This document shows positions 23,508 to 40,579 of a DNA stretch of 64,000 nt, in pieces (position 1 is the first letter of the stretch; each line of letters begins with the position of its first letter). The stretch is from Pyrinomonadaceae bacterium (GTDB lineage: Bacteria; Acidobacteriota; Blastocatellia; Pyrinomonadales; Pyrinomonadaceae). The stretch lies in assembly GCA_035273325.1 (NCBI GenBank), contig DATEPF010000236.1:254-64253 (forward strand), written 5' to 3'. A program made the translations under genes and the position numbers. The notes beneath the pieces were generated by a model. The model did no database searches. It had not been told where the DNA came from and worked only from the letters and a program-made list of their open reading frames with translations.

Positions 23508-24035
23508 ATGCTCTTTGTTGAAACGAAATTAGAAGGCGCCTATCTGGTTCAGTTGGAGCCGTTCGAAGATGAGCGCGGATTTTTCGCTTTGAGCTGGTCT
23601 GAGAAGGAGTTTGCCGCACGCGGGCTCGAGTCGCGCCTTGCCGAGTGCAATGTTTCCTTTAATCGGAAAAAGGGAACGCTCCGAGGCATGCATTATCAGG
23701 AGGCGCCGCATGGCCAGGTTAAGTTAGTGCGCTGCACGAGAGGCGCGATTTTTGACGTCATAATTGATCTTCGGGCATCATCACCCACCTTCAAACAATG
23801 GGTGGGCGCTGAGCTCTCGGCGGAAAACCGTCACGCGCTGTACATACCGAGGGACTTCGCTCATGGATTTCAAACGCTGACGGACGATTCAGAAATCCTC
23901 TACCAAGTGTCGGATCCTTTTGTGCCTGCGAGTGGCCGGGGCGTTCGTTGGAACGATCCGGCATTTGGGATCACCTGGCCCGATAGTGACCGCCTCATGT
24001 CCCAGAGGGATAACGAGTATCCCGATTTCCATTGA
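23508..24035 (+). CDS. RmlC-like cupin, NDP-4-keto-6-deoxyhexose 3,5- (or 3- or 5-) epimerase
   Basis: 'FEDERGFFALSW', 'NVSFNRKKGTLRGMHYQ', 'KLVRCTRGAIFDVIIDLR', 'FAHGFQTL'. Confidence 0.85.
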   Translation: MLFVETKLEGAYLVQLEPFEDERGFFALSWSEKEFAARGLESRLAECNVSFNRKKGTLRGMHYQEAPHGQVKLVRCTRGAIFDVIIDLRASSPTFKQWVGAELSAENRHALYIPRDFAHGFQTLTDDSEILYQVSDPFVPASGRGVRWNDPAFGITWPDSDRLMSQRDNEYPDFH

Positions 24036-24049
24036 GAGGCGTTTTTGCG

Positions 24050-25126
24050 ATGAGCTCAGAAATCGTTTTCGATAGCGCCGGCGTGTCAGAAGCATTGGCC
24101 GCGGCGGGCAAGGACGAAGATCTCCGGACGACGTTCTTCGAGGCTTTGCGGCGCGCGGAGGCGGCTTCCGCAGATCCCGCCGTTTTTCGAGAGCAGGTCC
24201 GATGGCCGTTGATACTTGCGTCGTTAAGCGCGGCCAGGACTCACAGAATTCAAATGGGAAACGGTTTGATTTTTGAAGTGGGTGCGGACAGCCGCATTGA
24301 GCGCGCGTTGCTGTTGAGCAGTGAAGAACATCCGGATCACGTGTGGGAGCCGCAAACCACAAAATTGCTTACGGCGCTGGCCCGCGAAACGTCGAATGTC
24401 ATCGTGGGCGGCGCCTACATAGGCGATCAGGTGCTGTTTCTTGCGCGCGCAACGGCCGAACGCAAACCGCCGGGCGTGATTCATGCTTTCGAGCCTATGA
24501 AAACTTCGTTTGATCGTCTGGTTAGCAATCTGAGCCTCAACCACATTACGAATGTTGTGTCTAAGCGCCTGGGACTCTGGGACGAGCCGGCGGTGGCGCT
24601 CGCGATCGAGGGTCACCTCGGCCTGGCTTCTTCCAAACCGGTCGCCGAAAGCGGCAGCGCTGATGAACGAATCGAATCGACCTCGATCGATGAGTATGCG
24701 CGCTCGCAGCAGCTTCCGTCCGTCGGCCTCATCATGTTGGACACGGAAGGCGGCGAAGAGAAAGCGCTGCTCGGAGCGCGCGCGACAATCGAGGAGCACA
24801 AACCGAACATTGTTGTGGAAGTGCACCGGAATTTTGTCGACTGGACAGACGGTTTGGAGCACACTTCGTTAATCCGGTTCTTAACGTCGCGCGGGTATTC
24901 GGCTTTCGCCATCCGCGATTTCCACGATAACTATCCGATGGCCGGCCGGCCAATTGAGATCGTGCCGGTGGATCGAGTGTATCTGGAAGGACCACCGCAC
25001 GGATTTAACGTACTCGCCACTGCGGATGGCGATTTGATCACCAGGCACGGGTTACGAATCGTCGAGGACGTCAGTCCGAAGTTGCTGCTTCACAAAGACC
25101 CGGCCCTCCATCATCCCAAGTTTTGA
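24050..25126 (+). CDS. FkbM-family methyltransferase with an N-terminal extension
   Basis: 'VGGAYIGDQVLFLA', 'IHAFEPMKTSFDRLVSNL', 'LIMLDTEGGEEKALLGA'. ATG 24050 is preferred; TTG 24032 is possible. Confidence 0.7.
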   Translation: MSSEIVFDSAGVSEALAAAGKDEDLRTTFFEALRRAEAASADPAVFREQVRWPLILASLSAARTHRIQMGNGLIFEVGADSRIERALLLSSEEHPDHVWEPQTTKLLTALARETSNVIVGGAYIGDQVLFLARATAERKPPGVIHAFEPMKTSFDRLVSNLSLNHITNVVSKRLGLWDEPAVALAIEGHLGLASSKPVAESGSADERIESTSIDEYARSQQLPSVGLIMLDTEGGEEKALLGARATIEEHKPNIVVEVHRNFVDWTDGLEHTSLIRFLTSRGYSAFAIRDFHDNYPMAGRPIEIVPVDRVYLEGPPHGFNVLATADGDLITRHGLRIVEDVSPKLLLHKDPALHHPKF

Positions 25127-25136
25127 GCTTCAATCA

Positions 25137-25958
25137 ATGATTACCGTTCTCGGCGCTTCTGGATTTATCGGATCTCACCTGGTCAGGCGACTGACCGAGC
25201 TGGGAATTCGCCACGACGCGCCGTCTCGGGATGAAAACCGGCCGCGCCAGAACTGCGGACATATAATTTACTGCATCGGATTAACGGCTGACTTCCGATC
25301 TCGTCCCTTTGACACCGTGCAGGCGCATGTCTGTAAACTGATGCAGGTTTTAAGAGATTGGGAGTTTGATTCGCTTCTATACCTGTCTTCGACTCGTTTA
25401 TATGGAAATGAGCTGACGACGGCCAACGAGGAAGATGGGTTTCGATTCAACCCATCGAATCCCAGCGATTTATACAATCTGTCAAAGGCGATGGGAGAAT
25501 CGATCACGCTTTCGTGCGGCCGGAAAACACGCGTGGCCAGATTGTCTAATATTTATGGTGAGGATTTGAACTCAGATAACTTTCTGCCGTCGGTTATCGG
25601 CGAAGCGCTGGCCAAACGTAAGGTAGTGCTGCGCACGACAGGTGACTCAGCGAAGGACTATCTAAGCATCAGCGTCGCGGTACAAGGCCTAATCGACATC
25701 GCGACGCGAGGCAGGGAACGTATTTATAATCTGGCCAGCGGCGTGAATGTTTCAAACGGGGAGCTGGTTCAGGAGTTGAGCAGCCTCACCGGCTGCGAGG
25801 TTGAATTCCTTCCGGACGCGAAAACAATTAACTTTCCAGTGATCGATATCAGCCGCATGCAAACGGAATTTGGTTTTCAACCGTCCGATGTGCTTAGCGA
25901 CCTGGAAGAGCTTGTAAATTTCTATCGGCAACACGGAGGCTCAGGTGATCTCAATTGA
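25137..25958 (+). CDS. NAD(P)-dependent SDR epimerase/reductase (candidate NDP-4-ketohexose reductase)
   Basis: 'MITVLGASGFIGSHLVRRL' and 'YNLSK' (YxxxK). Confidence 0.7.
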   Translation: MITVLGASGFIGSHLVRRLTELGIRHDAPSRDENRPRQNCGHIIYCIGLTADFRSRPFDTVQAHVCKLMQVLRDWEFDSLLYLSSTRLYGNELTTANEEDGFRFNPSNPSDLYNLSKAMGESITLSCGRKTRVARLSNIYGEDLNSDNFLPSVIGEALAKRKVVLRTTGDSAKDYLSISVAVQGLIDIATRGRERIYNLASGVNVSNGELVQELSSLTGCEVEFLPDAKTINFPVIDISRMQTEFGFQPSDVLSDLEELVNFYRQHGGSGDLN

Positions 25959-26709
25959 TCTCGAACAGGGCCTGGTTACGGTCGAAGAAAACGGGAGCCG
26001 TCTTCAGCACGCGATTGGCAGCGCCGAAGCGTTCGAGGTGCTGTCGAACGCGTGGCTTCGAAGCGGCTGGGACAACAAGCATGTCTATAGTTTCACCTGG
26101 TTCGGCCGGCCAATAATCCAATTGCCGGAAGACATGGTGCGGTTGCAGGAAGTTATCTACGCGCTCAAACCCGACGTAATTATTGAGACGGGCATCGCGC
26201 ACGGCGGGTCTTTAGTTTTTTATGCAAGCCTTTGCAAGGCCATGGGGCGAGGGCGCGTCGTGGGCATCGACATCGAAATCCGGCCGCACAACCGCCAGGC
26301 TATTGAAGAGCACCCGCTGTTCCCGCTGATCACATTGATCGAAGGCAGCTCGATAGATCCAGAAGTTGTAAGTCGCGTCCGGGCGCAAATACGGCCCGGC
26401 GAGACCGTGCTGGTGTTGTTGGATTCATGCCACACCAAGCAGCATGTTCTGGATGAGTTAAATGCCTACGCGCCGCTGGTGACGGCGGGCTCATATATCG
26501 TGGCGATGGATGGCATCATGGAACAGGTCTCCGGCGCGCCGCGCACGGAAGCGAATTGGACATGGAACAATCCCCGAGCGGCAGCGCTCGAGTTCGTGGC
26601 GGCCCATCCGGAATTTGTGATTGACGACCCGCAATTCAAGTTTAATGAAGGTAATATCTCAAAAGCGGTGACCTATTGGCCCAGCGGTTACATTAAACGC
26701 GTCGGTTGA
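25945..26709 (+). CDS. CmcI / cephalosporin-hydroxylase-family methyltransferase (sugar O-methyltransferase candidate)
   Basis: 'WFGRPIIQLPEDMVRLQEVIYALKPDVIIETGIAHGGSLVFYASL'. GTG start with GGAGG 5 nt upstream. Confidence 0.75.
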   Translation: MISIDLEQGLVTVEENGSRLQHAIGSAEAFEVLSNAWLRSGWDNKHVYSFTWFGRPIIQLPEDMVRLQEVIYALKPDVIIETGIAHGGSLVFYASLCKAMGRGRVVGIDIEIRPHNRQAIEEHPLFPLITLIEGSSIDPEVVSRVRAQIRPGETVLVLLDSCHTKQHVLDELNAYAPLVTAGSYIVAMDGIMEQVSGAPRTEANWTWNNPRAAALEFVAAHPEFVIDDPQFKFNEGNISKAVTYWPSGYIKRVG

Positions 26710-27687: not shown

Positions 27688-28746
27688 ATGGAGCGCGCGT
27701 TACAAATCGAATCAACGCTAATCAACGATGCCGGCGACTGCTATGTGATAGCTGAAATTGGCCACAACCATCAGGGGAATATTGAAACCGCGAAGGAGTT
27801 GTTTCGCGCGGCCAAAGAATCCGGCGCGAACGCGGTTAAATTGCAGAAGCGAGACAATCGCTTATTGTACACGCGCGAGATGTTCAATAAGCCGTACGAG
27901 AACGAGAACAGTTTCGGGGCGACGTACGGTGAGCACCGTGAGTTCCTGGAGTTCGGCAAGGAAGAGTATCAGGAGCTACAAAAGTTCGCGGCGGAACTGG
28001 GGTTAGCTTTTTTTGCGACGGCTTTTGATTTTCACAGCGCCGATTTTCTGGCTGAGTTGAACACGCCCGCATTCAAGATTGCTTCCGGAGATTTGCGAAA
28101 CATTCCGTTGCTGAAGCATGTCGCGGGCTATCAAAAACCAGTGATCGTCAGCACAGGCGGAGGTACGATTGACGACGTGCAGCGTGCCTACGACTCGTTC
28201 ATGCCCATTAATCCGCAACTGGCCATCCTGCAATGCACCGCCGGTTACCCATGTGCCTTCGAGGAAATGAATCTGCGCGTCATCTCAACGTTTCGCGAGC
28301 GCTTTCCCGATATCGTGATAGGTTTGTCATCCCATGACAGCGGTATTGCCATGGCCGTCGCCGCGTATATTTTGGGCGCGCGGATTGTGGAAAAACATTT
28401 TACCCTCAATCGCGCAATGAAGGGCACCGATCATGCCTTCTCGCTCGAGCGTGGAGGCTTGCGACGCGTGGTCCGGGATTTGAAACGCGCTCGCGTGGCC
28501 TTAGGAGACGGGGTAAAAAGAACGTACCCGAGCGAAGTCGCGCCGTTGTTGAAGATGGGAAAGAAACTCGTGGCGGCGTCAGATCTGCCCGCGAATCATG
28601 TCATCCGGCGCGAGGACGTCGCGATCAAGTCGCCAAGCGACGGCCTTCCGCCCTTCGAATTGGATCACGTCGTCGGCAAAGTGACCCGAAGGGCGTTGAA
28701 AGAAGACGAGAACATTAATTTCGAAGACGTGGACGGTAACAGTTGA
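27688..28746 (+). CDS. NeuB-family PEP-condensing ulosonic (nonulosonic) acid synthase with C-terminal SAF domain
   Basis: 'CYVIAEIGHNHQGNIETAKELFRAAKESGANAVKLQKR', 'AFKIASGDLRNIPLL', 'PVIVSTGG', 'VEKHFTLNRAMKGTDHAFSL'. RBS AGGGAG. Confidence 0.85.
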   Translation: MERALQIESTLINDAGDCYVIAEIGHNHQGNIETAKELFRAAKESGANAVKLQKRDNRLLYTREMFNKPYENENSFGATYGEHREFLEFGKEEYQELQKFAAELGLAFFATAFDFHSADFLAELNTPAFKIASGDLRNIPLLKHVAGYQKPVIVSTGGGTIDDVQRAYDSFMPINPQLAILQCTAGYPCAFEEMNLRVISTFRERFPDIVIGLSSHDSGIAMAVAAYILGARIVEKHFTLNRAMKGTDHAFSLERGGLRRVVRDLKRARVALGDGVKRTYPSEVAPLLKMGKKLVAASDLPANHVIRREDVAIKSPSDGLPPFELDHVVGKVTRRALKEDENINFEDVDGNS

Positions 28747-29267
28747 CCGATAACCCTCGCGTGCTTGACGCTGCATCGCTAGCCAGGATCATTCGCACCA
28801 TCCGGCTGATCGCTTTTGATTTTGACGGCGTGTTCACAGACAACTCGGTTTACGTCTTTGAGGACGGTCGCGAGGCTGTCAGGTGTACGCGTAGTGACGG
28901 CATGGGCCTGGCGAAGCTTACCGGGCTGGGGATCGCCACCGTCGTCATCTCAACGGAACCGAACCCCGTAGTCTCCGCGCGCAGTCGCAAACTTAAGATC
29001 GATTGCATTCAGGATTGTGCGGACAAACGCGCGGCCATCGATCAAGTTGCCGGCAACCTGGGTCTCACGCTTGAGCAGGTTGCGTTCGTGGGAAACGACA
29101 TAAACGATCTGCCCTGTCTAACGGCCGTCGGCCTTCCGATCGTTGTCGGCGACGCTCATCCTGACGTTGTGCAGTGGGCTGCATATCAAACGAAGAAGTT
29201 TGGTGGCTACGGCGCGGTGCGGGAAGTGTGCGATTTGTTTGAAGCTGCACTACGGGGCGAGAGTTAG
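28743..29267 (+). CDS. HAD-IIIA KdsC-type ulosonate-phosphate phosphatase (TTG start, 4-nt overlap)
   Basis: 'IRLIAFDFDGVFTDNSVYV..GREAVRCTRSDGMGL', 'VAFVGNDINDLPCLTAVGLPIVVGDAHP'. Confidence 0.8.
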   Translation: MTDNPRVLDAASLARIIRTIRLIAFDFDGVFTDNSVYVFEDGREAVRCTRSDGMGLAKLTGLGIATVVISTEPNPVVSARSRKLKIDCIQDCADKRAAIDQVAGNLGLTLEQVAFVGNDINDLPCLTAVGLPIVVGDAHPDVVQWAAYQTKKFGGYGAVREVCDLFEAALRGES

Positions 29268-30068
29268 ATGCTGAAGAACCTCTTCGACGTTGAAAACAAG
29301 ATAGTGATCGTCACCGGCGGTTGGGGGCAACTCGGCCGCGAGTTTACCAGTGCACTAAGCGCTCGCGGCGCGCGCGTAGCAGTATTCGACATCGTAGCCG
29401 GCGAGACACCTGATTTCGAGTTTGGAGAGCGGATTCTTTCGATCGAGGCTGACGTAACGAGCCGAGATTCGATCGAAGCAGGACTGAAACAAGTTACCTC
29501 AGCGTGGGGCGTGCCGCACGCGCTCATCAACAACGCCGGCCTCGATTCACCGCCAAACGCTCCCATCGAAGAAACAGGTCCCTTTGAGTCTTACCCCGAG
29601 AGTTCGTGGGACAAAGTTATGGAAGTGAACTCAAAGGGCGTCTTTCTATGTTGTCAGGTTATCGGCGGCGCGATGGCAAACGCCGGCCGCGGTTCGATTG
29701 TGAATATCAACTCGATCTACGGATTGATATCACCGGACCAGCGCATTTATGAGTATCGACGCACTCAAGGCGATCACTTCTTTAAACCGGTGGCCTATGC
29801 CGCTTCGAAATCTTCGTTGCTTAATTTGACTCGTTATTTGGCCACCTACTGGGCCGCAAAAAACGTTCGGGTCAACAGTTTGACGCTGGCTGGCGTCTTT
29901 AACAATCAAGATTCCCAGTTCCTTAAAAGCTATACTTCGCGCGTTCCACTCGGCCGAATGGCCGAACCCGGGGATTACGCAGGAGCGATTATTTTTATGG
30001 TCTCGGAGGCCTCGTCCTACATGACGGGTGCAAACATGGTGATTGACGGCGGTTGGACGGCGTGGTGA
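29268..30068 (+). CDS. Short-chain dehydrogenase/reductase
   Basis: 'KIVIVTGGWGQLGREF', 'NNAG', 'YAASKSSLLNLTRYLA'. The start abuts the previous stop. Confidence 0.85.
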   Translation: MLKNLFDVENKIVIVTGGWGQLGREFTSALSARGARVAVFDIVAGETPDFEFGERILSIEADVTSRDSIEAGLKQVTSAWGVPHALINNAGLDSPPNAPIEETGPFESYPESSWDKVMEVNSKGVFLCCQVIGGAMANAGRGSIVNINSIYGLISPDQRIYEYRRTQGDHFFKPVAYAASKSSLLNLTRYLATYWAAKNVRVNSLTLAGVFNNQDSQFLKSYTSRVPLGRMAEPGDYAGAIIFMVSEASSYMTGANMVIDGGWTAW

Positions 30069-30074
30069 AGCGTG

Positions 30075-31553
30075 ATGAGCTTGAGAACCCTTTTAGTGCC
30101 GGCGGAAATTCTGAATTGGATCGAGGGAGAGGAGCACGCGGCGATCTCAGGTGAGTTGTTCGACAAGCTCAACCCTGCCGACGGCACGTTACTGACCCGA
30201 AGCGCGCGCTCGCGAGGTGAAGACGTGCAGCATGCGGTGGCGGCCGCGAAAGCCGCGCAACCGGCATGGGCCGCCATACCGCCGGTAAAACGCGGTGAAT
30301 TGCTACTGGATATCGCGATGTCGTTGAAAGCGCAGCGCGAACCCATGGCCCGGATCGTCGCGGCCGAGACGGGCAAGTCCTATCGCGATGCTCTCGGCGA
30401 AACTGACGGCGCGGTGGCCCAGGGTGTTTTCATGGCGGGTGAGGGTCAGAGGCTTTACGGTCGCACGACGACTTCGGCGGTGCCGCACAAGCATGCAATG
30501 ACTATTCGGCAGCCGATGGGTGTAGCCGGATTAATCATCGCGGCCAACACGCCGATCGCCAATGTCGCTTGGAAGGTTTTCCCGGCTTTGATCTGCGGCA
30601 ACGCCGTAGTTCTGAAGGCGGCTGAAGACACTCCGGCAACGGCGTGGGCATTCAGCAGGATTGCCCACGACGCCGGCTTGCCGGCCGGTGTTTTAAACGT
30701 AATAAATGGGTTCGGCGAGGAAGCGGGCGAACCGCTGGTGCAACATCCGGATGTAAGCGTTATCAGCTTTACCGGTTCAACTGCTGCCGGCCGGCGCATC
30801 GCTGTCGAAGCCGGCAGGCGGCTGGCAAAGATTTCCCTGGAGCTGGGCGGCAAAAACGCTTTAGTCGTTTGTGATGACGCCGATCTGAACAACGCGCTGA
30901 AGTGGATTCTGTTGTCCGCCTTCAGCAACGCCGGACAACGCTGCGCTTCAGGAAGCCGCATTATCATTTTCGATCAAATTTACGAACAGGTTCGTCAGAT
31001 GCTTATCGAAGGATGCGAGAAACTGCGCGTCGGCACGGGCGATGATGCTGATTTCGGACCGGTCATCAACGAGAAGCAATTGCAAAATATGTTGGCTGCC
31101 ATCGAGCGAGCCCGCGATGCGGGGGCCACCGTCTTGACGGGTGGACACAGACTGACAACTGATGAGCATCGGAGTGGTTACTATTTGGCGCCGACTTTGA
31201 TTGAAAACGCCGCGCCTCAAGCCGAGATTTCCGTCAACGAATTGTTTGGACCGGTTGCTTGTCTTTATCGGGTAAAGAATTTCGCCGAAGGTCTGAGGCT
31301 GGTAAACGATTCGCCTTACGGGCTGACGGCGTGTATTCATACGCGTAACTTACATCGGGCAGTTGAGTTTACGCAGAAGGTCCAGAGCGGCGTGGCGGTC
31401 GTGAATGCGGGAACCTACGGAAGCGAGCCTCACATGCCCTTCGGTGGCCTTAAGCAATCTGGAAACGGCTCACGAGAGCCGGGGACCGAAGCGCTCGACA
31501 TTTATTCAAATCTGAAGGACGTCTACATAAGCGTTGAGCCGGAACAGGTTTAG
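30075..31553 (+). CDS. NAD(P)-dependent aldehyde dehydrogenase
   Basis: 'VISFTGSTAAGRRI', 'ELGGKNALVVCDDADL', 'FSNAGQRCASGSRIII', 'PFGGLKQSGNG'. Confidence 0.9.
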   Translation: MSLRTLLVPAEILNWIEGEEHAAISGELFDKLNPADGTLLTRSARSRGEDVQHAVAAAKAAQPAWAAIPPVKRGELLLDIAMSLKAQREPMARIVAAETGKSYRDALGETDGAVAQGVFMAGEGQRLYGRTTTSAVPHKHAMTIRQPMGVAGLIIAANTPIANVAWKVFPALICGNAVVLKAAEDTPATAWAFSRIAHDAGLPAGVLNVINGFGEEAGEPLVQHPDVSVISFTGSTAAGRRIAVEAGRRLAKISLELGGKNALVVCDDADLNNALKWILLSAFSNAGQRCASGSRIIIFDQIYEQVRQMLIEGCEKLRVGTGDDADFGPVINEKQLQNMLAAIERARDAGATVLTGGHRLTTDEHRSGYYLAPTLIENAAPQAEISVNELFGPVACLYRVKNFAEGLRLVNDSPYGLTACIHTRNLHRAVEFTQKVQSGVAVVNAGTYGSEPHMPFGGLKQSGNGSREPGTEALDIYSNLKDVYISVEPEQV

Positions 31554-31562
31554 GTAAACTTT

Positions 31563-32327
31563 TTGGAAGGCGACTCAGGAATTCCAAGTGTGATTGCTTT
31601 GATCCCCGCACGCTCGGGTTCAAAGCGTGTCCAACAGAAAAATGTGCGTGTCCTTGGCGATCATCCTGTGATTGCCTATACGATCGCCGCCGCCCAGGAA
31701 AGCGGAATCTTCGCGAAAGTACTGGTCTCTACTGATTCTGAAGAATATGCGGCAATCGCGCGACATTACGGAGCGGACGTCCCCTTCCTGCGGCCGCCTG
31801 AGGTTTCCGGCGATCTTTCCCCGGACATCGAATGGGTTGACTTCACATTGAACAAGCTTCGTGAACAAGGCTCTAAATTTGGCTGTTTCAGCATTCTGCG
31901 ACCAACCAGTCCGTTCAGACAGGCGGCTACCATTCGGCGCGCGTGGAACCAATTTCTCAGCGACGAGGCAGTGGATTCACTGCGGGCGGTCGAGAAATGC
32001 AAGCAGCACCCCGGCAAGATGTGGGTCGTGCGGCAAAACAGAATGACTCCCTTGCTGCCGTTAACACCAGCCGAGATCCCCTGGCATAGCAGACAGTACC
32101 AATCGCTCCCCGAGATTTTTGTACAAAACGCCAGCCTGGAGATCGCTTGGTCCCGAGTCGTCTTCGAAAGTCGTTCGATTTCCGGCACGGTACTCATGCC
32201 GTTTTTTACTGAAGGTTACGAAGGATTCGACATCAACGATCCAATCGATTGGCAACGCGCTCAGGACCTGGTTGAAAGTGGCGACGCCCATTTGCCTCAC
32301 GTCTTTCAATCTCGGTATCCTGCTTAA
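31563..32327 (+). CDS. CMP-ulosonic acid synthetase (acylneuraminate cytidylyltransferase family)
   Basis: 'IALIPARSGSKRVQQKNVRVLGDHPVIAYTI' and 'ILRPTSPFR'. The start is TTG 31563 or GTG 31590. Confidence 0.8.
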   Translation: MEGDSGIPSVIALIPARSGSKRVQQKNVRVLGDHPVIAYTIAAAQESGIFAKVLVSTDSEEYAAIARHYGADVPFLRPPEVSGDLSPDIEWVDFTLNKLREQGSKFGCFSILRPTSPFRQAATIRRAWNQFLSDEAVDSLRAVEKCKQHPGKMWVVRQNRMTPLLPLTPAEIPWHSRQYQSLPEIFVQNASLEIAWSRVVFESRSISGTVLMPFFTEGYEGFDINDPIDWQRAQDLVESGDAHLPHVFQSRYPA

Positions 32328-32338
32328 TTCAAAAACTG

Positions 32339-34255
32339 ATGGTCAATATTTCGCTCATACCCCTCGATGAGTTCCGGCGAGTTCGCGCCGCTACGGCGCC
32401 GCGTGAGAGAGCACTCGCCTTGTTGGCTGATATGTGTCGCGCCAATACCATTGCTTCAGTCAAACGTGCAGGCTCAGGTCATCTTGGTTCGAGTTTTAGT
32501 TCGCTCGATATTGTTACTTTGCTCTATTACCAGGAAATGGATATGAGCGCCATCGGCGCGCGCGATCCTAATCGCGACATCTACTTTTCTTCCAAAGGCC
32601 ACGACGTGCCGGGCCAGTATGCAGTTCTGTTCGCGTGCGGCATTCTCCCGAAGGAACAGTTTGTGCGGCTCCGCCGCTTGGGCGGCACCTACGGCCATCC
32701 GGACGTGACGACTCCCGGCATTGAAGCAAACACAGGGTCGCTCGGCATGGGTATCAGCAAAGGAAAAGGCTTTGCGTTTGGCAAACGCGCGCGCGGCTGG
32801 GCGGGCCGAGTCTTTGTGATGACCGGGGACGGCGAGTTGCAGGAAGGCCAGATTTACGAATCGCTTCAAAGCGCAGTCACCCAGAACCTAACGAATCTCA
32901 CGGTCATCGTCGATCACAATAAAGTGCAATCGGATCAGCAGGTCAGCCAAATCAGCGACCTCGGAGATCTGGAAGCGAAATTCCGAGCTTTTGGTTGGCA
33001 CGTGGCGCGTTGTTGCGGTCACGACTTTTCTGCGTTGTCGAGGGTCTTTGATGAGTTTCGGACCATCAACGATAAGCCAAAGATCCTCATCGCCGACACG
33101 ATCAAAGGCCGTGGAGTTTCGTTCATGGAGCATCCACAGGCACTGAAGGCCGACGGTGGTTTTTACCGGTGGCACGCAGGAGCGCCGGACGACGAGTCGT
33201 TCGTTGCCGGATACGAAGAGATCGTGAGCCGGATCAATAACAATTTACTGGAATTAGATCTGGCGCCGCTGAAGCTTGAGGAGTATCCCACGGAGGCCAG
33301 AGTCGACAGCAGTGTCTCTACTGAGTATGTGGTCGATGCGTACGGCGAAGCCCTGGCTGACGTCGCTAAAGAACACGAGAATCTGATCGTGCTGGATGCA
33401 GACCTGACGGCCGACTGCCGTTTGAAAAGATTCAAAGCTGAATATCCCGAGCGATTCATCCAGAACGGAATTGCCGAACAGGACATGGTTTCGATGGCCG
33501 GCGGATTGGCCCTGGCGGGCTTTCTGCCCGTCGTCAACACCTTCGCATCGTTTCTGTCCGCCCGCGCGAACGAGCAAATTTACAATAACGGTTGCGAGCG
33601 AACTCGGATCATCTATGTGAACCATTATGGCGGCTTGATCCCGGCGGGGCCGGGGCAGTCTCACCAAAGTATTCGCGACATATCATTACTCGGTTCGCTC
33701 CCAAACTTCGTGATCGTCCAGCCTGGCAATGCGGCCGAAACGCGTATGGCAGTCGAATATGGAGTTGCGAAATGCGAGGGCAATTTTGTCCTGCGTTTGG
33801 CAATTGGACCGTCGCCGAGAATTATTGAATTGCCCGACGGCTATCGATTGACACTCGGCCGCGGCGTTGCATTAACGGAAGGTGACGATGCAGTGTGCTT
33901 TGCCTATGGGCCGGTGATGTTGAATGAAGCGTTGATTGCGGCTGAGACCTTACGTGCGCGCGGGTTCCGTTTGAAAGTTGTGAACATGCCGTGGCTAAAT
34001 CGCGTTGACGAGCAGTGGCTGACCGAAACGGTCGAGCCTTCGCCCGCAATTTATGTCCTGGATGATCACGCCCCGGTCGGAGGGCTGGGCGACACGTTGT
34101 TGAATCAACTCATGCGAGCGAATCTGATCCAGAGCCGAACGTTCAAGAAGTTCGCAGTTAAAGGATATCCAGCGTGCGGAACGCCGCGCGAGGTTCTGGA
34201 CTTTCACGGGCTCAGCGGTCAGTCGCTGGCGGCGCAAATCCTGGGGACGCATTAG
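32339..34255 (+). CDS. Transketolase-family ThDP enzyme (N- and C-terminal halves fused in one 638-aa protein)
   Basis: 'GSGHLGSSFSSLDIVTLLYY', 'SKGHDVPGQYAVL', 'TGSLGMGISKG', 'VMTGDGELQEGQIYESL'. The C-terminal half has 'FIQNGIAEQDMVSMAGGLAL' and 'GPGQSHQSIRDISLL'. Confidence 0.85.
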   Translation: MVNISLIPLDEFRRVRAATAPRERALALLADMCRANTIASVKRAGSGHLGSSFSSLDIVTLLYYQEMDMSAIGARDPNRDIYFSSKGHDVPGQYAVLFACGILPKEQFVRLRRLGGTYGHPDVTTPGIEANTGSLGMGISKGKGFAFGKRARGWAGRVFVMTGDGELQEGQIYESLQSAVTQNLTNLTVIVDHNKVQSDQQVSQISDLGDLEAKFRAFGWHVARCCGHDFSALSRVFDEFRTINDKPKILIADTIKGRGVSFMEHPQALKADGGFYRWHAGAPDDESFVAGYEEIVSRINNNLLELDLAPLKLEEYPTEARVDSSVSTEYVVDAYGEALADVAKEHENLIVLDADLTADCRLKRFKAEYPERFIQNGIAEQDMVSMAGGLALAGFLPVVNTFASFLSARANEQIYNNGCERTRIIYVNHYGGLIPAGPGQSHQSIRDISLLGSLPNFVIVQPGNAAETRMAVEYGVAKCEGNFVLRLAIGPSPRIIELPDGYRLTLGRGVALTEGDDAVCFAYGPVMLNEALIAAETLRARGFRLKVVNMPWLNRVDEQWLTETVEPSPAIYVLDDHAPVGGLGDTLLNQLMRANLIQSRTFKKFAVKGYPACGTPREVLDFHGLSGQSLAAQILGTH

Positions 34256-34259
34256 CATT

Positions 34260-35978
34260 ATGAGATCACTGCCGCGAAGGGTGTGGCATCGCCTGAATCC
34301 AAAACGCCGGCCCGAGGATCCATATCCGAAGTGGGAAAGACTTTTGCGCGCCGACAGCCGGCTTTGGAGCGAAGCGGTTCAGAATGCGAAGAATGGTCCG
34401 CGCATTCTGATCGCCACGAGCGCAGGCGGTTTTCGCCCGGGCGCAATCGTCGAGAGCACGCTCGCGGCCGCGCTGACGCTTCGCGGCGCGAACGTTGAGA
34501 TCCTGCTTTGCGACGAAGTGCTTCCGGCATGCATCCAGTCATTGGTTACGCAATCGGATGCGCGCGAGCAGTCGTCCCAACCGGCCGCGGACAGGCAGCA
34601 GAAGAAGCTTTGCGCCGGCTGCTTCGCCCCGGGCCACGCGATGTACCAATCGCTTGGGCTACCAGTTCATCGCTACAGTCAGTTCATTTCAACAGAAGAA
34701 CGCGCGGCGGCCCGGGCTCTTGCTTCAACGCATCCGCGAAACAAGATTAGCGATTACAGTCTTGACGGCATTGCGGTCGGCGAGCATGCGCTCGCCGGCG
34801 CACTGCGGTTCTTTGCGAGCGGCAACCTGAATGCTGAGCCGAACGCTGAGCCGATCCTGCGCCGGTACTTCGAAGCCTCACTTCTGACGACGTACGCGAC
34901 CCGGCGTTTGCTGGCGACGACTGATTACGACGCGGCCTGTTTCCATCACGGGATTTATGTTCCACAGGGACTGATTGGCGAAGTCGCGCGCGCGAAGAGT
35001 GTTCGCGTCGTCAACTGGAACCCGGCTTACCGGAAACAGTGTTTCATCTTTAGTCATCACGATACTTATCACCACACGCTGCTCGACGAGCCGATCAGTC
35101 ACTGGGAAAACATCGAATGGAATAACGCGATGGAAGATGAGTTAATGGACTATTTGAAGAGCCGTTGGCGCGGCACGCAGGATTGGATTTGGTTTCACGA
35201 AAAGCCGGAGGAAGATCTCGCGACCATTGCTGCCGAACTGGGCGTGGATTTCAGTCGGCCGTGCATTGGCATGCTGACCAATGTCATGTGGGACGCGCAA
35301 CTGCACTATCGAGCAAATGCGTTCCCCAATATGCTGGAATGGGTAATCCAAACCATCAGGTACTTTATCGGACGGCCGGAACTTCAACTGCTGATTCGCG
35401 TCCACCCGGCCGAAATTCGCGGTAATTTGCCTTCGCGTCAGCCGCTCGTCGCGGAAATTCAGCGGGCATTTCCTCACCTCCCAAGAAATGTTATCGTGAT
35501 CCCGCCGGAGAGCCAGGTGAGCACGTACGCAGCAATGGCGCAGTGCGATTCTGTAATCATCTACGGCACAAAAACCGGAGTCGAACTCGCCAGCATGGGA
35601 ATTCCTACGATCGTCGCCGGCGAGGCTTGGATTCGGAACAAAGGCATTACCAACGATGCCGCAACAGCCGAACAGTATTTTGGATTGCTGGATCAGTTGC
35701 CGGGCGAGACTCGGATGAGTGCCTGTGAAACTGAGCGCGCGCGCAAATATGCCTATCATTTCTTTTTTCGGCGCATGATTCCCTTGTCATTCATGGAGGA
35801 AAGCAAAGGAGGAGCTCCGTTCCGCCTTAACCTGCAAAGCATCACCGAGCTCTTGCCGGGCCGCGAGCCAGGCCTCGACGTGATTTGCAATGGCATCCTA
35901 AACGGAAGTGAGTTCATTTATCCGGCGGAACATGGCGGAAAACTAAGCGCTTCTGAAGTGATGTACGCGCATTCCTAG
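34260..35978 (+). CDS. Large GT-B-like transferase, tentatively Capsule_synth (KpsC/KpsS-like) family; candidate ulosonic-acid transferase
   Basis: 'LLIRVHPAEIRG' (HP motif) and 'DSVIIYGTKTGVELASMGIPTIVAGEAWIRNKGIT' resemble the C-terminal half of KpsS/KpsC-type proteins. It lies 5 nt after the transketolase. The assignment is from memory of motifs only. Confidence 0.4.
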   Translation: MRSLPRRVWHRLNPKRRPEDPYPKWERLLRADSRLWSEAVQNAKNGPRILIATSAGGFRPGAIVESTLAAALTLRGANVEILLCDEVLPACIQSLVTQSDAREQSSQPAADRQQKKLCAGCFAPGHAMYQSLGLPVHRYSQFISTEERAAARALASTHPRNKISDYSLDGIAVGEHALAGALRFFASGNLNAEPNAEPILRRYFEASLLTTYATRRLLATTDYDAACFHHGIYVPQGLIGEVARAKSVRVVNWNPAYRKQCFIFSHHDTYHHTLLDEPISHWENIEWNNAMEDELMDYLKSRWRGTQDWIWFHEKPEEDLATIAAELGVDFSRPCIGMLTNVMWDAQLHYRANAFPNMLEWVIQTIRYFIGRPELQLLIRVHPAEIRGNLPSRQPLVAEIQRAFPHLPRNVIVIPPESQVSTYAAMAQCDSVIIYGTKTGVELASMGIPTIVAGEAWIRNKGITNDAATAEQYFGLLDQLPGETRMSACETERARKYAYHFFFRRMIPLSFMEESKGGAPFRLNLQSITELLPGREPGLDVICNGILNGSEFIYPAEHGGKLSASEVMYAHS

Positions 35979-36012: not shown

Positions 36013-36942
36013 ATGTTCCTGTTTCACCCAATCAAATCGAGTAAGGCAATCCTCAGGTCGTTCGATTTCCGCTTGCAACGTATCGAGTGGCGCCTGGAGT
36101 CCGTTCAAGAAGCGCTCGGAAGGATCGAGTTGCGACACCTGAGTGCGCGAGACAGTAACAACCTGACTGACCACCAGTTTCGCGTGTTTTCGCAATGGGG
36201 CGAGGACGGAATGATTCAATTCTTGTTGAGACACGTAGCCCCTGAGAACAAGGTATTCGTCGAATTCGGAGCGGATGCCTACAACTATGAATCAAACACG
36301 CGCTTTCTGCTGACCAATGACAATTGGAGAGGCTTGATAATCGATAGCAGTGAGCGCGCCATTGCAGAGTTAAAGAGAAGTCGTGCCTGGGAGCTGCATG
36401 ATCTGACGGCAGTTCAGGCTTTCATCACCAGAGAAAACATTAACGAACTCCTGACACAACACGGAATCAACGGCGAAATCGGTCTGCTCTCGATTGATAT
36501 CGATGGAAATGATTATTGGGTTTGGCAGGCCATCAATGTGATACAACCGGTAATCGTGATCGCTGAATACAATCACCGCTTTGGCCCGGATCGGGCCGTA
36601 ACTATTCCATACGACGAAAAATTTGATCGTAAGGAAGCACATCCGTCCAAACTTTATTTTGGCGCCTCGTTGCAAGCTCTCTGTCAGCTTGGCAAAGCGA
36701 AAGGTTACGCATTTGTCGGATGTAACGGAGTGAACGCGTTCTTTGTGCGCGCCGACAAAAGACCGCAGGTGCTTAAGGAGCTGACCCCTGCGGAAGGATT
36801 TGTTCAGGGCAAATTCGGCGAGCCGTTCCCGCGAAACGGTCAAACAGTCAAACTTAGCCCGGAAGAGGAATCCGCGTTCCTTCAAAGTTTGGATCTGCCG
36901 TTGGTGGATGTATCAAACCAGGAATTCAAAAAGCCAAACTGA
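36013..36942 (+). CDS. Hypothetical protein, FkbM-like SAM-MTase-fold candidate
   Basis: 'FSQWGEDGMIQFLLRHVAPENKVFVEFGADAYNYESNTRFLL..WRGLIID' resembles the sQ.GED...........fvefGA......SNT motif of small FkbM-like proteins. Confidence 0.35.
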   Translation: MFLFHPIKSSKAILRSFDFRLQRIEWRLESVQEALGRIELRHLSARDSNNLTDHQFRVFSQWGEDGMIQFLLRHVAPENKVFVEFGADAYNYESNTRFLLTNDNWRGLIIDSSERAIAELKRSRAWELHDLTAVQAFITRENINELLTQHGINGEIGLLSIDIDGNDYWVWQAINVIQPVIVIAEYNHRFGPDRAVTIPYDEKFDRKEAHPSKLYFGASLQALCQLGKAKGYAFVGCNGVNAFFVRADKRPQVLKELTPAEGFVQGKFGEPFPRNGQTVKLSPEEESAFLQSLDLPLVDVSNQEFKKPN

Positions 36943-39467: not shown

Positions 39468-39547
39468 GCGCCGTTGGTACCAATTTATTAATCAGGTGTG
39501 CTTATAATGGCGGCTGACTTTGAAGGCTTGCGCGGTTCGATGATGTG

Positions 39548-40579
<1,032 letters not shown>

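What the first reader, a model, noticed from the sequence alone, without database searches (positions are those of the whole stretch)
27688..35978. Non-canonical ulosonic-acid operon: NeuB-type synthase, KdsC-type phosphatase, SDR, ALDH, CMP-transferase, transketolase, Capsule_synth-like transferase
Seven genes are packed with 0-11 nt gaps or overlaps:
- 28743/28746: a 4-nt overlap.
- 29267/29268: abutting.
- 30068 to 30072/30075.
- 31553 to 31563.
- 32327 to 32339.
- 34255 to 34260.
A NeuB-family PEP condensing enzyme directly followed by a KdsC-type HAD phosphatase implies a phosphorylated aldose acceptor, which is the logic of Kdo-8-P and KDN-9-P routes such as the Bacteroides KDN pathway. 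A NeuA-type cytidylyltransferase would then make the CMP-sugar. None of the usual upstream enzymes is present: no NeuC 2-epimerase, no PseB/C/H/G, no LegB/C/H/G, no KdsD. In their place are an SDR, an aldehyde dehydrogenase and a full-length fused transketolase. Together these could build or remodel an unusual acceptor, by two-carbon ketol transfer to a sugar phosphate, redox tailoring, and oxidation of an aldehyde to a carboxylate. I know of no characterised Neu5Ac, Pse, Leg, Aci, Kdo or KDN gene set with this composition. This is my best candidate for an undescribed pathway in the window. A further inference is that its product is a chain-terminating cap read by one of the two Wzt C-terminal domains, as beta-Kdo is in Klebsiella O12.
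Basis: partly seen in the sequence, partly recalled or inferred. Interest (0 to 1): 0.75.

Follow-up and report, generated by a model that had tools for sequence, protein, structure and literature searches.

The report
Undescribed acidic-sugar pathway with odd transketolase
A tightly packed set of seven genes, conserved in at least a dozen bacterial phyla but never described, appears to build and attach a new sialic-acid/Kdo-like acidic sugar, using a transketolase-like enzyme that has lost the sugar-phosphate pocket of ordinary transketolases.

Summary
Seven same-strand genes at 27688-35978 have junctions of -4 to +11 nt. They encode a NeuB-type synthase, a KdsC-type phosphatase, an SDR, an ALDH, a CMP-transferase, a fused transketolase-like enzyme and a 572-aa protein whose model resembles KpsC beta-Kdo transferases.

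The block is a portable module. All six partner functions lie within 10 kb of the gene-7 homolog in 20 of 80 species genomes sampled, across about 12 phyla. It occurs in ABC-transporter, Wzx-flippase and Bac_transf contexts. Where the KdsC-type phosphatase is missing, another HAD hydrolase takes its place. No paper in the library describes this gene set.

New points:
- The transketolase belongs to a distinct clade. It keeps the ThDP and catalytic residues but has replaced every canonical phosphate/stereo-binding residue.
- The SDR's nearest solved relative is the search model used for ElaC, which does C8 redox on CMP-legionaminic acid.

Best mechanism (inferred, about 0.35):
- nonulosonate-9-P is dephosphorylated;
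- C8 is oxidised;
- a ThDP-dependent step removes C8-C9;
- the new C7 aldehyde is oxidised, giving a CMP-activated 3-deoxy-heptulosaric (Dha-type) acid.

The Wzt-cap idea cannot be judged.

The parts
27688..28746 (+). Gene 1: NeuB-family PEP-condensing ulosonate synthase (NeuB TIM barrel + SAF domain), outside the NeuB and PseI equivalog groups
   Evidence: - Pfam NeuB E 5e-75 plus SAF.
- TIGR03569 288 bits (cutoff 400) and PseI 223 bits (cutoff 340).
- Best solved relatives are SpsE, PseI and NmNeuB at 127-148 bits.
- The metal-binding His pair and the PEP residues are kept in 37-40 of 40 orthologs. NmNeuB R314 is Ser315 here, and N184 is Ala185.
28743..29267 (+). Gene 2: KdsC/YrbI-type HAD phosphatase (ulosonate-omega-phosphate phosphatase, inferred)
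   Evidence: - KdsC model 115 bits (cutoff 208); TIGR01670 101 bits (cutoff 107); KDN-9-P phosphatase 91 bits (cutoff 180).
- Motifs DFDGVFTD and GNDIND are present.
- In 15 loci it is replaced by a different HAD placed between the TK and gene 7.
29268..30068 (+). Gene 3: classical SDR of the 6UH2/ElaC-like group; proposed C8 (omega-1) dehydrogenase of the nonulosonate
   Evidence: - adh_short_C2 E 3.6e-41.
- Best solved relative is 6uh2 at 146 bits and 36% identity; all others score 98 bits or less.
- 6UH2 was the molecular-replacement model for ElaC, the CMP-8-keto-Leg5,7Ac2 C8 reductase (PMC13656337).
30072..31553 (+). Gene 4: NAD(P)+ aldehyde dehydrogenase (non-acylating); proposed to oxidise the new terminal aldehyde to a carboxylate
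   Evidence: - Aldedh E 1.1e-148.
- Best NCBIfam models are alpha-ketoglutarate semialdehyde DH (425 bits, cutoff 770) and 2,5-dioxovalerate DH (407 bits), both below cutoff.
- ELGGK and GQRC catalytic motifs are present.
31563..32327 (+). Gene 5: CMP-ulosonate synthetase (cytidylyltransferase) of the NeuA/PseF type
   Evidence: - CTP_transf_3 E 6.8e-19.
- PseF 133 bits (cutoff 206); KdsB models 39 bits or less.
- An alternative start at 31590 was used by the gene caller on the source contig.
32339..34255 (+). Gene 6: fused transketolase-like ThDP enzyme of a distinct clade that lacks the canonical sugar-phosphate pocket; proposed C7-C8 cleaving enzyme
   Evidence: - Transketolase_N, Transket_pyr and Transketolase_C domains. 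Best model PRK05899.2-5, 388 bits (cutoff 488).
- ThDP and catalytic residues are kept (H48, H88, H120, D164, N194, H279, E380).
- Human R318, S345, H416, D424 and R474 correspond to E329, D359, Y430, P438 and I489, family-wide.
- The signature marks a clade boundary at about 300 bits among 91 full-length representatives.
34260..35978 (+). Gene 7: GT-B-like glycosyltransferase related to retaining beta-Kdo transferases (KpsC/KpsS GT107, WbbB GT99); proposed transferase for the CMP-sugar
   Evidence: - No Pfam or NCBIfam family above threshold.
- AF2 model pLDDT 82. Foldseek top hit is KpsC 6mgb (E 8.6e-9, TMt 0.54); WbbB 8csb scores E 2.5e-5.
- R380-x-H-P-A-E385 and T437-K-x-G-x-E442 are invariant in 83 of 83 homologs.
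- 367 species genomes carry a homolog.
- A 26%-identical homolog in Legionella adelaidensis sits beside a CMP-NulO synthetase gene.
36013..36942 (+). Gene 8 (accessory, lineage-restricted): class I SAM-dependent methyltransferase, FkbM-like
   Evidence: - Weak Methyltransf_21 hit, E 0.018.
- AF2 pLDDT 79. Foldseek finds COMT-like O-methyltransferases at about E 1e-6.
- It follows gene 7 only in Pyrinomonadaceae and some cyanobacteria.

Best explanation
Genes 1-7 form a self-contained, horizontally mobile module. It makes a CMP-activated, oxidatively tailored 3-deoxy-2-ulosonic acid and transfers it to a polysaccharide. I hold this general claim at about 0.85.

The most likely route is inferred, not shown:
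1. The NeuB-type synthase condenses PEP with a hexose 6-phosphate to give a 3-deoxy-nonulosonate 9-phosphate. Man-6-P is the simplest guess, as in the KDN route.
2. The HAD phosphatase frees the 9-OH.
3. The ElaC-like SDR oxidises the penultimate carbon (C8). This creates an HOCH2-CO-CHOH terminus, which is a ketose-type donor.
4. The transketolase-like ThDP enzyme cleaves C7-C8, removing C8-C9 as a glycolaldehyde unit and leaving a C7 aldehyde. Its pocket no longer fits a phosphate.
5. The ALDH oxidises that aldehyde to a carboxylate. The product is a seven-carbon dicarboxylic sugar, a 3-deoxy-hept-2-ulosaric acid (Dha-type, stereochemistry unknown).
6. The cytidylyltransferase makes the CMP-sugar. 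By analogy with ElaABC, this step could come before step 3.
7. The KpsC-like gene 7 product transfers the sugar.

Gene 8 may methylate the sugar or the glycan in some lineages.
For: Shown:
- Module composition is conserved. All six partner functions lie within 10 kb of gene-7 homologs in 20 of 80 species genomes, most of the rest being cut by contig ends. It also appears on four metagenome contigs. At least three gene orders occur.
- The phosphatase is retained by non-orthologous displacement in 15 loci.
- The TK keeps its ThDP and catalytic residues but has lost all canonical phosphate/stereo residues. This signature defines a clade: 47 of 54 representatives at 300 bits or more have D359 and none of these has Arg at 489, against 0 of 37 below 300 bits.
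- The clade stays with NeuB, SDR and CMP-transferase genes down to 34-42% identity.
- The SDR's nearest solved relative is 6UH2, the search model for ElaC, a C8 ketoreductase of CMP-legionaminic acid. The next-best solved relatives include sorbitol and galactitol dehydrogenases, which from my own knowledge are penultimate-carbon polyol dehydrogenases.
- The ALDH's best models are 2-oxoacid semialdehyde dehydrogenases.
- Gene 7's fold is closest to CMP-beta-Kdo transferases.

Inferred:
- The scheme uses each of the three odd enzymes exactly once, in a chemically ordered way.
- It explains why a phosphatase is needed, since a TK donor needs a free terminal OH.
- It explains why the TK pocket is not built for phosphate.
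- It explains why a C9-type synthase is paired with a Kdo-type transferase.
- SDR-TK adjacency in L015 and L092 fits SDR-to-TK coupling.
Against: - No enzyme was assayed, and the regiochemistry of the SDR and the substrates of the TK and ALDH are not determined.
- SDR and ALDH scores are all below the curated cutoffs and only modestly favour the families cited.
- ElaC is described as a reductase acting on a CMP-sugar, not an oxidase.
- A transketolase normally needs an acceptor aldehyde for the C2 unit. None is evident, and the residue that sets acceptor stereochemistry (human D424) is Pro here.
- The ALDH might instead oxidise released glycolaldehyde.
- One variant (L089) shows no phosphatase nearby, and one array (L073) lacks the ALDH.
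- If the acceptor is Man-6-P, the product would be an L-arabino stereoisomer and not plant Dha (D-lyxo). This is my own stereochemical reasoning.
Confidence: 0.35

Rival explanations
1. Same-length ulosaric acid. The SDR oxidises the terminal CH2OH of the dephosphorylated ulosonic acid to an aldehyde, and the ALDH converts it to a carboxylate. This follows the logic of the Kdo8N pathway, where the terminal carbon of free Kdo is oxidised before CMP activation. The TK-like enzyme acts upstream or separately, for example by reshaping a non-phosphorylated precursor sugar.
For: - The gene order in the window reads synthase-phosphatase-SDR-ALDH-CMP-transferase, as this pathway would run.
- The ALDH is conserved throughout.
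- Terminal-carbon oxidation of a free ulosonic acid has a precedent in KdnB of Shewanella (from my own knowledge).
Against: - It leaves the strictly co-conserved TK without a defined role.
- If the acceptor is a sugar phosphate, which the phosphatase implies, a TK without a phosphate pocket is an odd supplier.
- The SDR's nearest relatives act on secondary (penultimate) carbons, not primary alcohols.
Confidence: 0.2
2. The transketolase, with the SDR and ALDH, builds or remodels an unusual phosphorylated aldose acceptor by ketol transfer. NeuB then condenses that acceptor with PEP, followed by the phosphatase and CMP activation.
For: - The TK is always present in the module.
- No conventional precursor genes (NeuC, Pse, Leg, KdsD) occur in the window.
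Against: - All canonical phosphate-binding residues of transketolase are replaced, one by an invariant Asp (D359, 42 of 42).
- Transketolase products are ketoses, whereas NeuB enzymes need an aldose, and no isomerase is conserved in the module.
- An ALDH acting on the acceptor would destroy the aldehyde that NeuB needs.
Confidence: 0.1
3. Carboligase reading. The SDR makes a keto or aldehyde group on the ulosonic acid, and the TK-like enzyme adds a C2 (or C1) unit to it. This extends or branches the chain. The SDR or ALDH then finishes the new group, giving a higher or branched acidic sugar.
For: - The TK has a DXS-like 'GQSHQ' segment in place of the TK 'GPTHQ' pattern (my reading of the alignments).
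- ElaC-type SDRs are ketoreductases, which would suit reduction after ligation.
- ThDP-dependent branching of sugars has a precedent in YerE (from my own knowledge).
Against: - It needs an unidentified donor.
- The TK and ALDH would compete for the same aldehyde.
- It does not explain why a free terminal OH, and so a phosphatase, is required.
- The protein is globally closer to transketolases (220 bits) than to DXS (about 112 bits).
Confidence: 0.12
4. The SDR, ALDH and TK are only passengers, for example making a non-sugar substituent or doing housekeeping work, and the sugar is an ordinary KDN-like nonulosonic acid.
For: All single-gene family scores are below the equivalog cutoffs, so none of the functions is pinned down.
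Against: - Co-occurrence holds across about 12 phyla, through rearrangements and in different export contexts.
- The TK clade is found with NeuB, SDR and CMP-transferase genes even at 34-42% identity.
Confidence: 0.05

Closest known systems
KDN pathway of Bacteroides thetaiotaomicron (KDN-9-P synthase, KDN-9-P phosphatase, CMP-KDN synthetase); pathway details from my own knowledge
   Same: A NeuB-family synthase sits directly next to a KdsC-type HAD phosphatase, with a NeuA-type cytidylyltransferase. This implies a phosphorylated hexose acceptor and a free ulosonic acid before CMP activation.
   Different: - The phosphatase scores only 91 bits against the KDN-9-P phosphatase model (cutoff 180).
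- Three further enzymes (SDR, ALDH, TK-like) and a KpsC-like transferase are strictly co-conserved. The KDN pathway has none of these.
ElaABC, C8 epimerisation of CMP-legionaminic acid in A. baumannii KL49 and V. vulnificus (PMC13656337)
   Same: The SDR belongs to the same 6UH2/ElaC-like group, which does redox chemistry at C8 of a nonulosonic acid. A CMP-transferase is part of the cassette.
   Different: - There is no ElaA-type Gfo/Idh/MocA oxidase.
- The SDR is paired with a ThDP enzyme and an ALDH, so the keto intermediate is probably consumed by C-C cleavage rather than reduced back.
Retaining beta-Kdo transferases KpsC/KpsS (GT107) and WbbB (GT99)
   Same: The predicted fold of gene 7 is closest to KpsC (E 8.6e-9), and WbbB also hits. 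An invariant HP-containing motif lies in the C-terminal Rossmann half. Some homologs reach PF05159.
   Different: - Only 14% identity.
- 572 aa with about 250 extra residues and four invariant Cys.
- Below the Pfam threshold.
- The donor is presumably not CMP-Kdo.
Canonical transketolase (EC 2.2.1.1), short human/split-chain type
   Same: Same three-domain fold. The ThDP, metal and catalytic His and Glu residues are conserved. Best solved relatives are human TK at 220 bits and the C. hydrogenoformans split TK.
   Different: The phosphate-binding and stereo-determining residues are replaced across the whole clade. The genomic context is always a NeuB/CMP-sugar module, not pentose-phosphate genes.
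Kdo8N pathway of Shewanella (KdnB oxidase + KdnA aminotransferase acting on free Kdo); from my own knowledge
   Same: The logic of tailoring the tail end of a free ulosonic acid through an aldehyde intermediate, between the phosphatase and CMP-activation steps.
   Different: Different enzyme families. Here the aldehyde is oxidised to an acid rather than transaminated, and a ThDP enzyme is involved.

Membership tests
NeuB family of PEP-condensing ulosonate synthases (PF03102) | NeuB TIM-barrel domain followed by a SAF (antifreeze-like) domain | tested here: met
   PF03102 E 5e-75 over residues 40-277; PF08666 E 3e-9 over residues 294-348.
NeuB family of PEP-condensing ulosonate synthases (PF03102) | Metal-binding His pair and PEP-binding Glu/Lys/Gln/Lys/Ser/Tyr (NmNeuB H215, H236, E25, K53, Q55, K129, S132, Y186) | tested here: met
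   Aligned to 1xuu. The equivalents H216, H237, E23, K51, Q53, K130, S133 and Y187 are conserved in 37-40 of 40 orthologs.
N-acetylneuraminate synthase (NeuB) or pseudaminate synthase (PseI) proper | Score above the NCBIfam equivalog cutoff, and Arg314 of the SAF domain (essential in NmNeuB; from my own knowledge) | tested here: not met
   TIGR03569 288 bits against 400; TIGR03586 223 bits against 340. R314 is Ser315 in 32 of 40 orthologs.
KdsC/YrbI-type (cap-less) HAD ulosonate-phosphate phosphatases | HAD motifs I-IV with the DxDGV(L/F)TD signature, and the family score | tested here: inconclusive
   The motifs are present. TIGR01670 scores 100.7 bits, just under its cutoff of 106.95. The KdsC equivalog scores 115 against 208, and KDN-9-P phosphatase 91 against 180.
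KDN biosynthesis cassette (synthase + phosphatase + CMP-synthetase only) | A three-enzyme pathway with no further tailoring | tested here: not met
   The SDR, ALDH and TK-like genes are co-conserved with the trio across phyla.
Transketolase, EC 2.2.1.1 | ThDP/metal-binding motif (GDG...N), cofactor-activating Glu and catalytic His residues | tested here: met
   H48, H88, H120, D164, N194, H279 and E380 are conserved in 39-42 of 42 orthologs.
Transketolase, EC 2.2.1.1 | Substrate phosphate-binding Arg/Ser/His/Arg and stereo-determining Asp (human R318, S345, H416, R474, D424; roles from my own knowledge of the TK structural literature) | tested here: not met
   These positions are E/Q329, D359 (42 of 42), Y/L430, I/S489 and P438 (41 of 41). 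A bona fide split TK keeps Ser, His, Asp and Arg at the four of these positions covered by that alignment. The clade boundary is shown. All NCBIfam TK models score below cutoff.
GT107/GT99 retaining beta-Kdo transferases (Pfam Capsule_synth for GT107) | GT-B-like fold similar to KpsC or WbbB | tested here: met
   Foldseek: 6mgb E 8.6e-9, TMt 0.54; 8fuw and 6mgc about E 6e-7 to 8e-7; 8csb (WbbB) E 2.5e-5.
GT107/GT99 retaining beta-Kdo transferases (Pfam Capsule_synth for GT107) | Sequence membership (PF05159 gathering score) and the HP / QxxxKD motifs (motifs recalled from memory) | tested here: inconclusive
   PF05159 scores 13.5 bits against 20, although 8 of the 120 top homologs carry it. 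An invariant RxHPAE motif is present. A QxxxKD equivalent was not established, and the catalytic Asp was not mapped.
ElaABC-type CMP-nonulosonate C8 epimerase cassette | ElaC-like SDR together with an ElaA-type Gfo/Idh/MocA oxidase | tested here: not met
   The SDR is 36% identical to 6UH2, the ElaC search model. No Gfo/Idh/MocA gene is present in the module or in the annotated part of the window.
CMP-ulosonate synthetases (CTP_transf_3) | Cytidylyltransferase domain; NeuA/PseF type rather than KdsB type | tested here: met
   PF02348 E 6.8e-19. PseF scores 133 bits (below the cutoff of 206), against 39 bits or less for KdsB models.

The most novel reading that the evidence does not exclude
The module is the first biosynthetic route to a CMP-activated 3-deoxy-hept-2-ulosaric acid, a Dha-type dicarboxylic sugar. 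It would be made by oxidative two-carbon shortening of a nonulosonic acid. In that route a transketolase-family enzyme performs a new reaction: ThDP-dependent cleavage of the 8-keto side chain of an unphosphorylated (or CMP-linked) ulosonic acid. Such sugars would then be widespread in the surface glycans of soil and aquatic bacteria from a dozen phyla.
Probability: 0.3. Interest if true: 0.85.

Novelty: new variant of a known kind. Interest (0 to 1): 0.72.

Why it matters
**A likely new sugar pathway.** CMP-activated ulosonic acids (sialic acids, Kdo, KDN, Leg, Pse) are key surface sugars, and each new pathway has opened new glycobiology. This module is conserved and mobile. It is present in cultured strains (Bradyrhizobium shewense ERR11, Moorena spp.) and in many uncultured soil and water lineages, yet it has no described product.

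**New enzymology.** If the proposed chemistry holds, it would add a new reaction type to the transketolase family. It would also give the first enzymatic route to, and nucleotide form of, a heptulosaric acid. For Dha of plant rhamnogalacturonan-II, both the biosynthesis and the activated donor are still listed as unknown (PMC12168206).

**Annotation value even if the route is wrong.** The D359/P438 transketolase-like clade and the KpsC-like gene-7 family are both mis-annotated or unannotated. The TK clade spans about 50 clusters at 50% identity, and the gene-7 family occurs in at least 367 species genomes. Both can now be flagged as markers of this pathway.

Tried and rejected
- **Literature.** Searches for the gene combination under several names found nothing relevant. 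The single hit, a C. butyricum paper, mentions transketolase only as a pentose-phosphate gene. A final multi-term search was badly designed and uninformative.
- **Is the product plant-type Dha?** I considered it. By Fischer-projection reasoning, shortening KDN would give the L-arabino isomer, not the D-lyxo isomer, so I claim only 'Dha-type'.
- **Rhizobial link.** Dha is reported in Rhizobiaceae LPS cores (Russa 1991, cited in PMC5713287). A protein search of 72,556 plasmids with gene 7 found no rhizobial replicon, only a 26%-identical Legionella homolog.
- **Do TK subtypes track the module variants?** I tested whether subtype I (E329, R361, H429, Y430, I489) and subtype II (Q329, G361, S429, L430, S489) follow the SDR and HAD variants. 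The correlation is only partial; L050, L061, L077, L084 and L080 are mixed. I draw no substrate inference from it.
- **Transcription signals.** The promoter/terminator scan showed no enrichment over shuffles. It is uninformative beyond being consistent with co-transcription.
- **ALDH against solved structures.** A search at E<=1e-100 returned nothing. I did not repeat it, to save capped searches.
- **Short contigs.** Two distant TK-clade look-ups landed on contigs of 2.6 kb; L091 gave no context at all.
- **Composition.** GC content is uniform (0.53-0.57) across the window, so there is no sign of recent insertion of the block.

Full report
**1. Observation**

The junctions are -4, 0, +3, +9, +11 and +4 nt.

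- Pfam and NCBIfam confirm the labels for genes 1-6: a NeuB+SAF synthase, a KdsC/YrbI-type HAD, a classical SDR, an aldehyde dehydrogenase, a CTP_transf_3 cytidylyltransferase (PseF-like rather than KdsB-like) and a three-domain fused transketolase.
- Every one scores below the curated equivalog cutoff of its best model. None is an ordinary NeuB, PseI, KdsC, KDN-9-P phosphatase, PseF or transketolase.
- The catalytic motifs of the HAD (DFDGVFTD, GNDIND) and the ALDH (ELGGK, GQRC) are intact.
- Gene 7 has no significant sequence family; Capsule_synth reaches only E 0.049. No solved structure is related to it by sequence.

The block lies in a long same-strand polysaccharide locus of about 18-46 kb. 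That locus holds two Wzm/Wzt pairs, many glycosyltransferases, a C-methylated deoxysugar cassette, GDP-mannose 4,6-dehydratase and N-formyl-aminosugar genes. No NeuC, Pse, Leg or KdsD-type precursor enzyme was found among the annotated ORFs.

GC content is uniform across the window. Promoter-like and terminator-like sites are not enriched.

The window matches an ENA metagenome contig. It also matches an NCBI MAG labelled Pyrinomonadaceae (Acidobacteriota), whose contig is 64,335 bp.

**2. The block is a conserved, portable module**

Close homologs of the synthase (73-97% identity) are abundant in metagenomes. Their neighbourhoods repeat NeuB-HAD-SDR-ALDH-CMP-transferase-TK-gene 7. This holds where the upstream genes differ and where four unrelated genes are interleaved (L003).

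Gene 7 defines a highly conserved family. Members are 56-67% identical across phyla, with 4246 hits. Relatives occur in 367 species-level genomes.

A tblastn tally over the 80 fetched genome loci gave these results:

| Partner functions within 10 kb of the gene-7 homolog | Loci |
|---|---|
| All six | 20 |
| Some (mostly cut by contig ends or the flank limit) | 34 |
| None (stand-alone gene-7 paralogs, often second copies in one genome) | 26 |

Complete or near-complete modules occur in these groups:
- Acidobacteriota (Pyrinomonadaceae, Thermoanaerobaculia, Aminicenantes)
- Chloroflexota
- Gemmatimonadota
- Nitrospirota
- Fibrobacterota
- Planctomycetota
- Gamma- and Alphaproteobacteria (Bradyrhizobium shewense ERR11, a cultured strain)
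- Deltaproteobacteria-type lineages
- Verrucomicrobiota
- Armatimonadota
- Elusimicrobiota
- Cyanobacteriota (Moorena, Cyanosarcina, Hydrococcus)

Export contexts differ. They are Wzm/Wzt here and in Bradyrhizobium, Wzx flippases in L003, L008 and L028, and a Bac_transf initiating transferase in L006.

There are at least three architectures:
- **A:** NeuB-HAD(KdsC)-SDR_A-ALDH-CMPt-TK-gene 7.
- **B:** NeuB-SDR_B-ALDH-CMPt-TK-HAD(other type)-gene 7.
- **C:** CMPt-gene 7-NeuB-HAD-SDR-ALDH-TK.

In architecture B the missing KdsC-type HAD is replaced by a PF00702/HAD_2-type hydrolase. It always sits between the TK and gene 7, in 15 loci. This non-orthologous displacement is strong evidence that a phosphatase step is intrinsic to the pathway.

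**3. Gene 7 is a KpsC-like transferase**

- An AlphaFold model built from 25 homologs is confident (pLDDT 82, pTM 0.84).
- Its best Foldseek matches are KpsC beta-Kdo transferases (6mgb E 8.6e-9, TMt 0.54; also 8fuw, 6mgc, 6mgd). WbbB in complex with CMP-beta-Kdo also hits, as do generic GT-B enzymes.
- An RxHPAE motif and a TKxGxE motif are invariant in 83 of 83 homologs. An HP motif is characteristic of CMP-sugar-using GT107/GT99 enzymes; I recall this from memory and did not test it.
- A 26%-identical homolog on a Legionella adelaidensis plasmid lies directly after an acylneuraminate cytidylyltransferase gene in an LPS locus.

Together these support a transferase that uses a CMP-ulosonic acid as donor.

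**4. The transketolase is not a canonical transketolase**

Gene 6 was aligned to human TK and to the bona fide split TK of C. hydrogenoformans.

Residues kept (39-42 of 42 module orthologs):
- the ThDP and metal motif (D164, N194);
- the cofactor-activating Glu (E380);
- the catalytic histidines (H48, H88, H120, H279).

Residues replaced are the five that bind the substrate phosphate or fix acceptor stereochemistry in transketolases. The roles assigned to them come from my knowledge of the TK structural literature.

| Human TK residue | Gene 6 family |
|---|---|
| R318 | E/Q329 |
| S345 | D359 (42 of 42) |
| H416 | Y/L430 |
| D424 | P438 (41 of 41) |
| R474 | I/S489 |

The split TK retains Ser, His, Asp and Arg at the four of these positions that its alignment covers.

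An exhaustive search of 1.84 billion representatives, followed by an alignment of the 91 full-length hits, shows a clean boundary:
- Of 54 representatives scoring 300 bits or more, 47 have D359. Of those, 43 also have P438 and none has Arg at 489.
- Of 37 representatives scoring below 300 bits, none has D359. Most show the canonical S...H...D...H/Q...R...R pattern.

Distant members of this clade are still embedded in the pathway:
- L089 (42% identity): NeuB-SDR-ALDH-TK-CMPt, with a bona fide PF05159 protein nearby.
- L092 (34% identity): NeuB and SDR adjacent.
- L090 (35% identity): a CMP-transferase fragment upstream.

Gene 6 therefore represents a distinct TK-like clade dedicated to this module. 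Its substrate is unlikely to be a sugar phosphate bound in the canonical way.

**5. Clues from the SDR, the ALDH and the synthase**

*SDR.* The best solved relative is 6uh2, at 146 bits and 36% identity; all others score 98 bits or less.
- 6UH2 was the molecular-replacement model for ElaC. ElaC is the SDR that reduces CMP-8-keto-Leg5,7Ac2 at C8 during 8-epi-legionaminic acid synthesis (PMC13656337).
- The variant-B SDR is also related to 6uh2, at 31% identity.
- The next-best solved relatives include sorbitol and galactitol dehydrogenases. These oxidise the penultimate carbon of a polyol chain to a 2-ketose (from my own knowledge).

*ALDH.* Its best models are alpha-ketoglutarate semialdehyde and 2,5-dioxovalerate dehydrogenases (425 and 407 bits, below cutoff). 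Those enzymes oxidise a terminal aldehyde on a 2-oxo acid.

*Synthase.* It keeps its metal and PEP ligands. It replaces NmNeuB Arg314, an essential SAF-domain residue (from my own knowledge), with Ser, and Asn184 with Ala. This is consistent with an acceptor other than ManNAc.

**6. Proposed mechanism (inferred)**

All characterised NeuB-family enzymes use six-carbon acceptors (from my own knowledge), so the primary product is probably a nonulosonate. The adjacent phosphatase implies a 9-phosphate.

After dephosphorylation, an ElaC-like SDR oxidising C8 would create an HOCH2-CO-CHOH terminus. That is precisely the donor motif a transketolase cleaves. It requires a free terminal hydroxyl, which explains the phosphatase. 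It carries no phosphate, which explains the remodelled pocket.

ThDP-dependent cleavage of C7-C8 would leave a C7 aldehyde, and the ALDH would oxidise it to a carboxylate. The product would be a 3-deoxy-hept-2-ulosaric acid of the Dha type. It would then be CMP-activated and transferred by the KpsC-like enzyme.

By analogy with ElaABC, CMP activation may instead come before the tailoring steps.

The scheme uses each odd enzyme once. It also reconciles a C9-type synthase with a Kdo-type transferase.

Its weak points:
- There is no assay evidence.
- SDR and ALDH family discrimination is only modest.
- The fate of the C2 unit is unknown.
- The ALDH could act on glycolaldehyde instead.
- Variants exist without a nearby phosphatase (L089) or without the ALDH in the array (L073).

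I put this route at about 0.35.

**7. Comparison with what is known, and novelty**

The module shares its first two steps and the CMP activation with the Bacteroides KDN pathway. It shares its SDR type with ElaABC, and its transferase fold with GT107/GT99. It fails the membership tests for each of these as a whole, and for canonical transketolase (see the membership table).

Full-text searches found no description of this gene set. Dha biosynthesis and its nucleotide donor are still listed as unknown in plants.

I classify the module as a new variant of a known kind, the CMP-ulosonic-acid pathways. It contains a probably new reaction for the transketolase family.

**8.

The undescribed-pathway claim and the functional linkage of all seven genes stand.
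- The proposed role of the transketolase on sugar phosphates does not stand.
- The Wzt-cap idea cannot be decided, and it is not a general property of the module.

Noticed in passing
window 18173-20343 and 42638-44891: Two separate Wzm/Wzt ABC-transporter pairs flank the locus. The first Wzt has only a weak Wzt_C hit (20.5 bits, cutoff 30.4). The second has a C-terminal extension of about 240 aa with no family.
   Followed up: partly
window 20432-26709: A cassette for a C-methylated, O-methylated deoxysugar lies directly upstream of the module. It holds a nucleotidyltransferase, a 4,6-dehydratase, a C-methyltransferase (Methyltransf_13/14), a 3,5-epimerase, an FkbM methyltransferase, a reductase and a CmcI-type O-methyltransferase. 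The same cassette accompanies the module in L004 but not in other relatives.
   Followed up: partly
window 39545-41574 and 46657-49441: GDP-mannose 4,6-dehydratase plus an epimerase/reductase, and a formyltransferase-WbqC-DegT aminotransferase set. Together they suggest an N-formylated 4-amino-6-deoxy sugar in the same glycan.
   Followed up: no
window 51284-53209: An asparagine-synthase-like glutamine amidotransferase (641 aa) lies within the glycan locus, possibly for amidating a carboxylate. That would be interesting if the module's sugar is a diacid.
   Followed up: no
window 12190-15027: A large DUF11/HYR-domain surface protein (945 aa) lies upstream of the locus. A similar CLIPPER/HYR protein sits upstream of the module on a related contig.
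   Followed up: no
window 34260-35978 (gene 7 residues 84-121): Four invariant cysteines (C84, C91, C118, C121) bracket a low-confidence loop (residues 95-116). This may be a Zn-binding insertion that KpsC lacks.
   Followed up: no
L027/L036 (same Anaerolineales contig), L084:19680-21401, L038 vs L074 (Moorena bouillonii): Genomes often carry two or more gene-7 paralogs. Some lie far from the module, which suggests several linkages or a polymer of the sugar.
   Followed up: partly
L089:13435-17833: A distant module variant has no nearby phosphatase. It lies beside a bona fide Capsule_synth protein and GmhA/PfkB/CTP_transf_like (heptose-pathway-like) genes, which raises the possibility of a different acceptor there.
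   Followed up: no
representatives P0305, P0326, P0339, P0343, P0345, P0355 and others: Another transketolase-like clade has Trp in place of the first catalytic His (H48). It otherwise carries the canonical S, D, R-R substrate residues. Its function is unknown.
   Followed up: no
L006:4680-5651 and L008:11870-12634: A GDSL/SGNH-type acylhydrolase-like gene is inserted in the module in L006 and lies next to it in L008. It may be an O-acetyl-handling enzyme.
   Followed up: no
L093 (Legionella adelaidensis plasmid NZ_LR134429) 428-4204: A 26%-identical gene-7 homolog, annotated as hypothetical, follows a CMP-NulO synthetase, an oxidoreductase and an acyltransferase. The family probably includes transferases for other nonulosonic acids.
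   Followed up: partly
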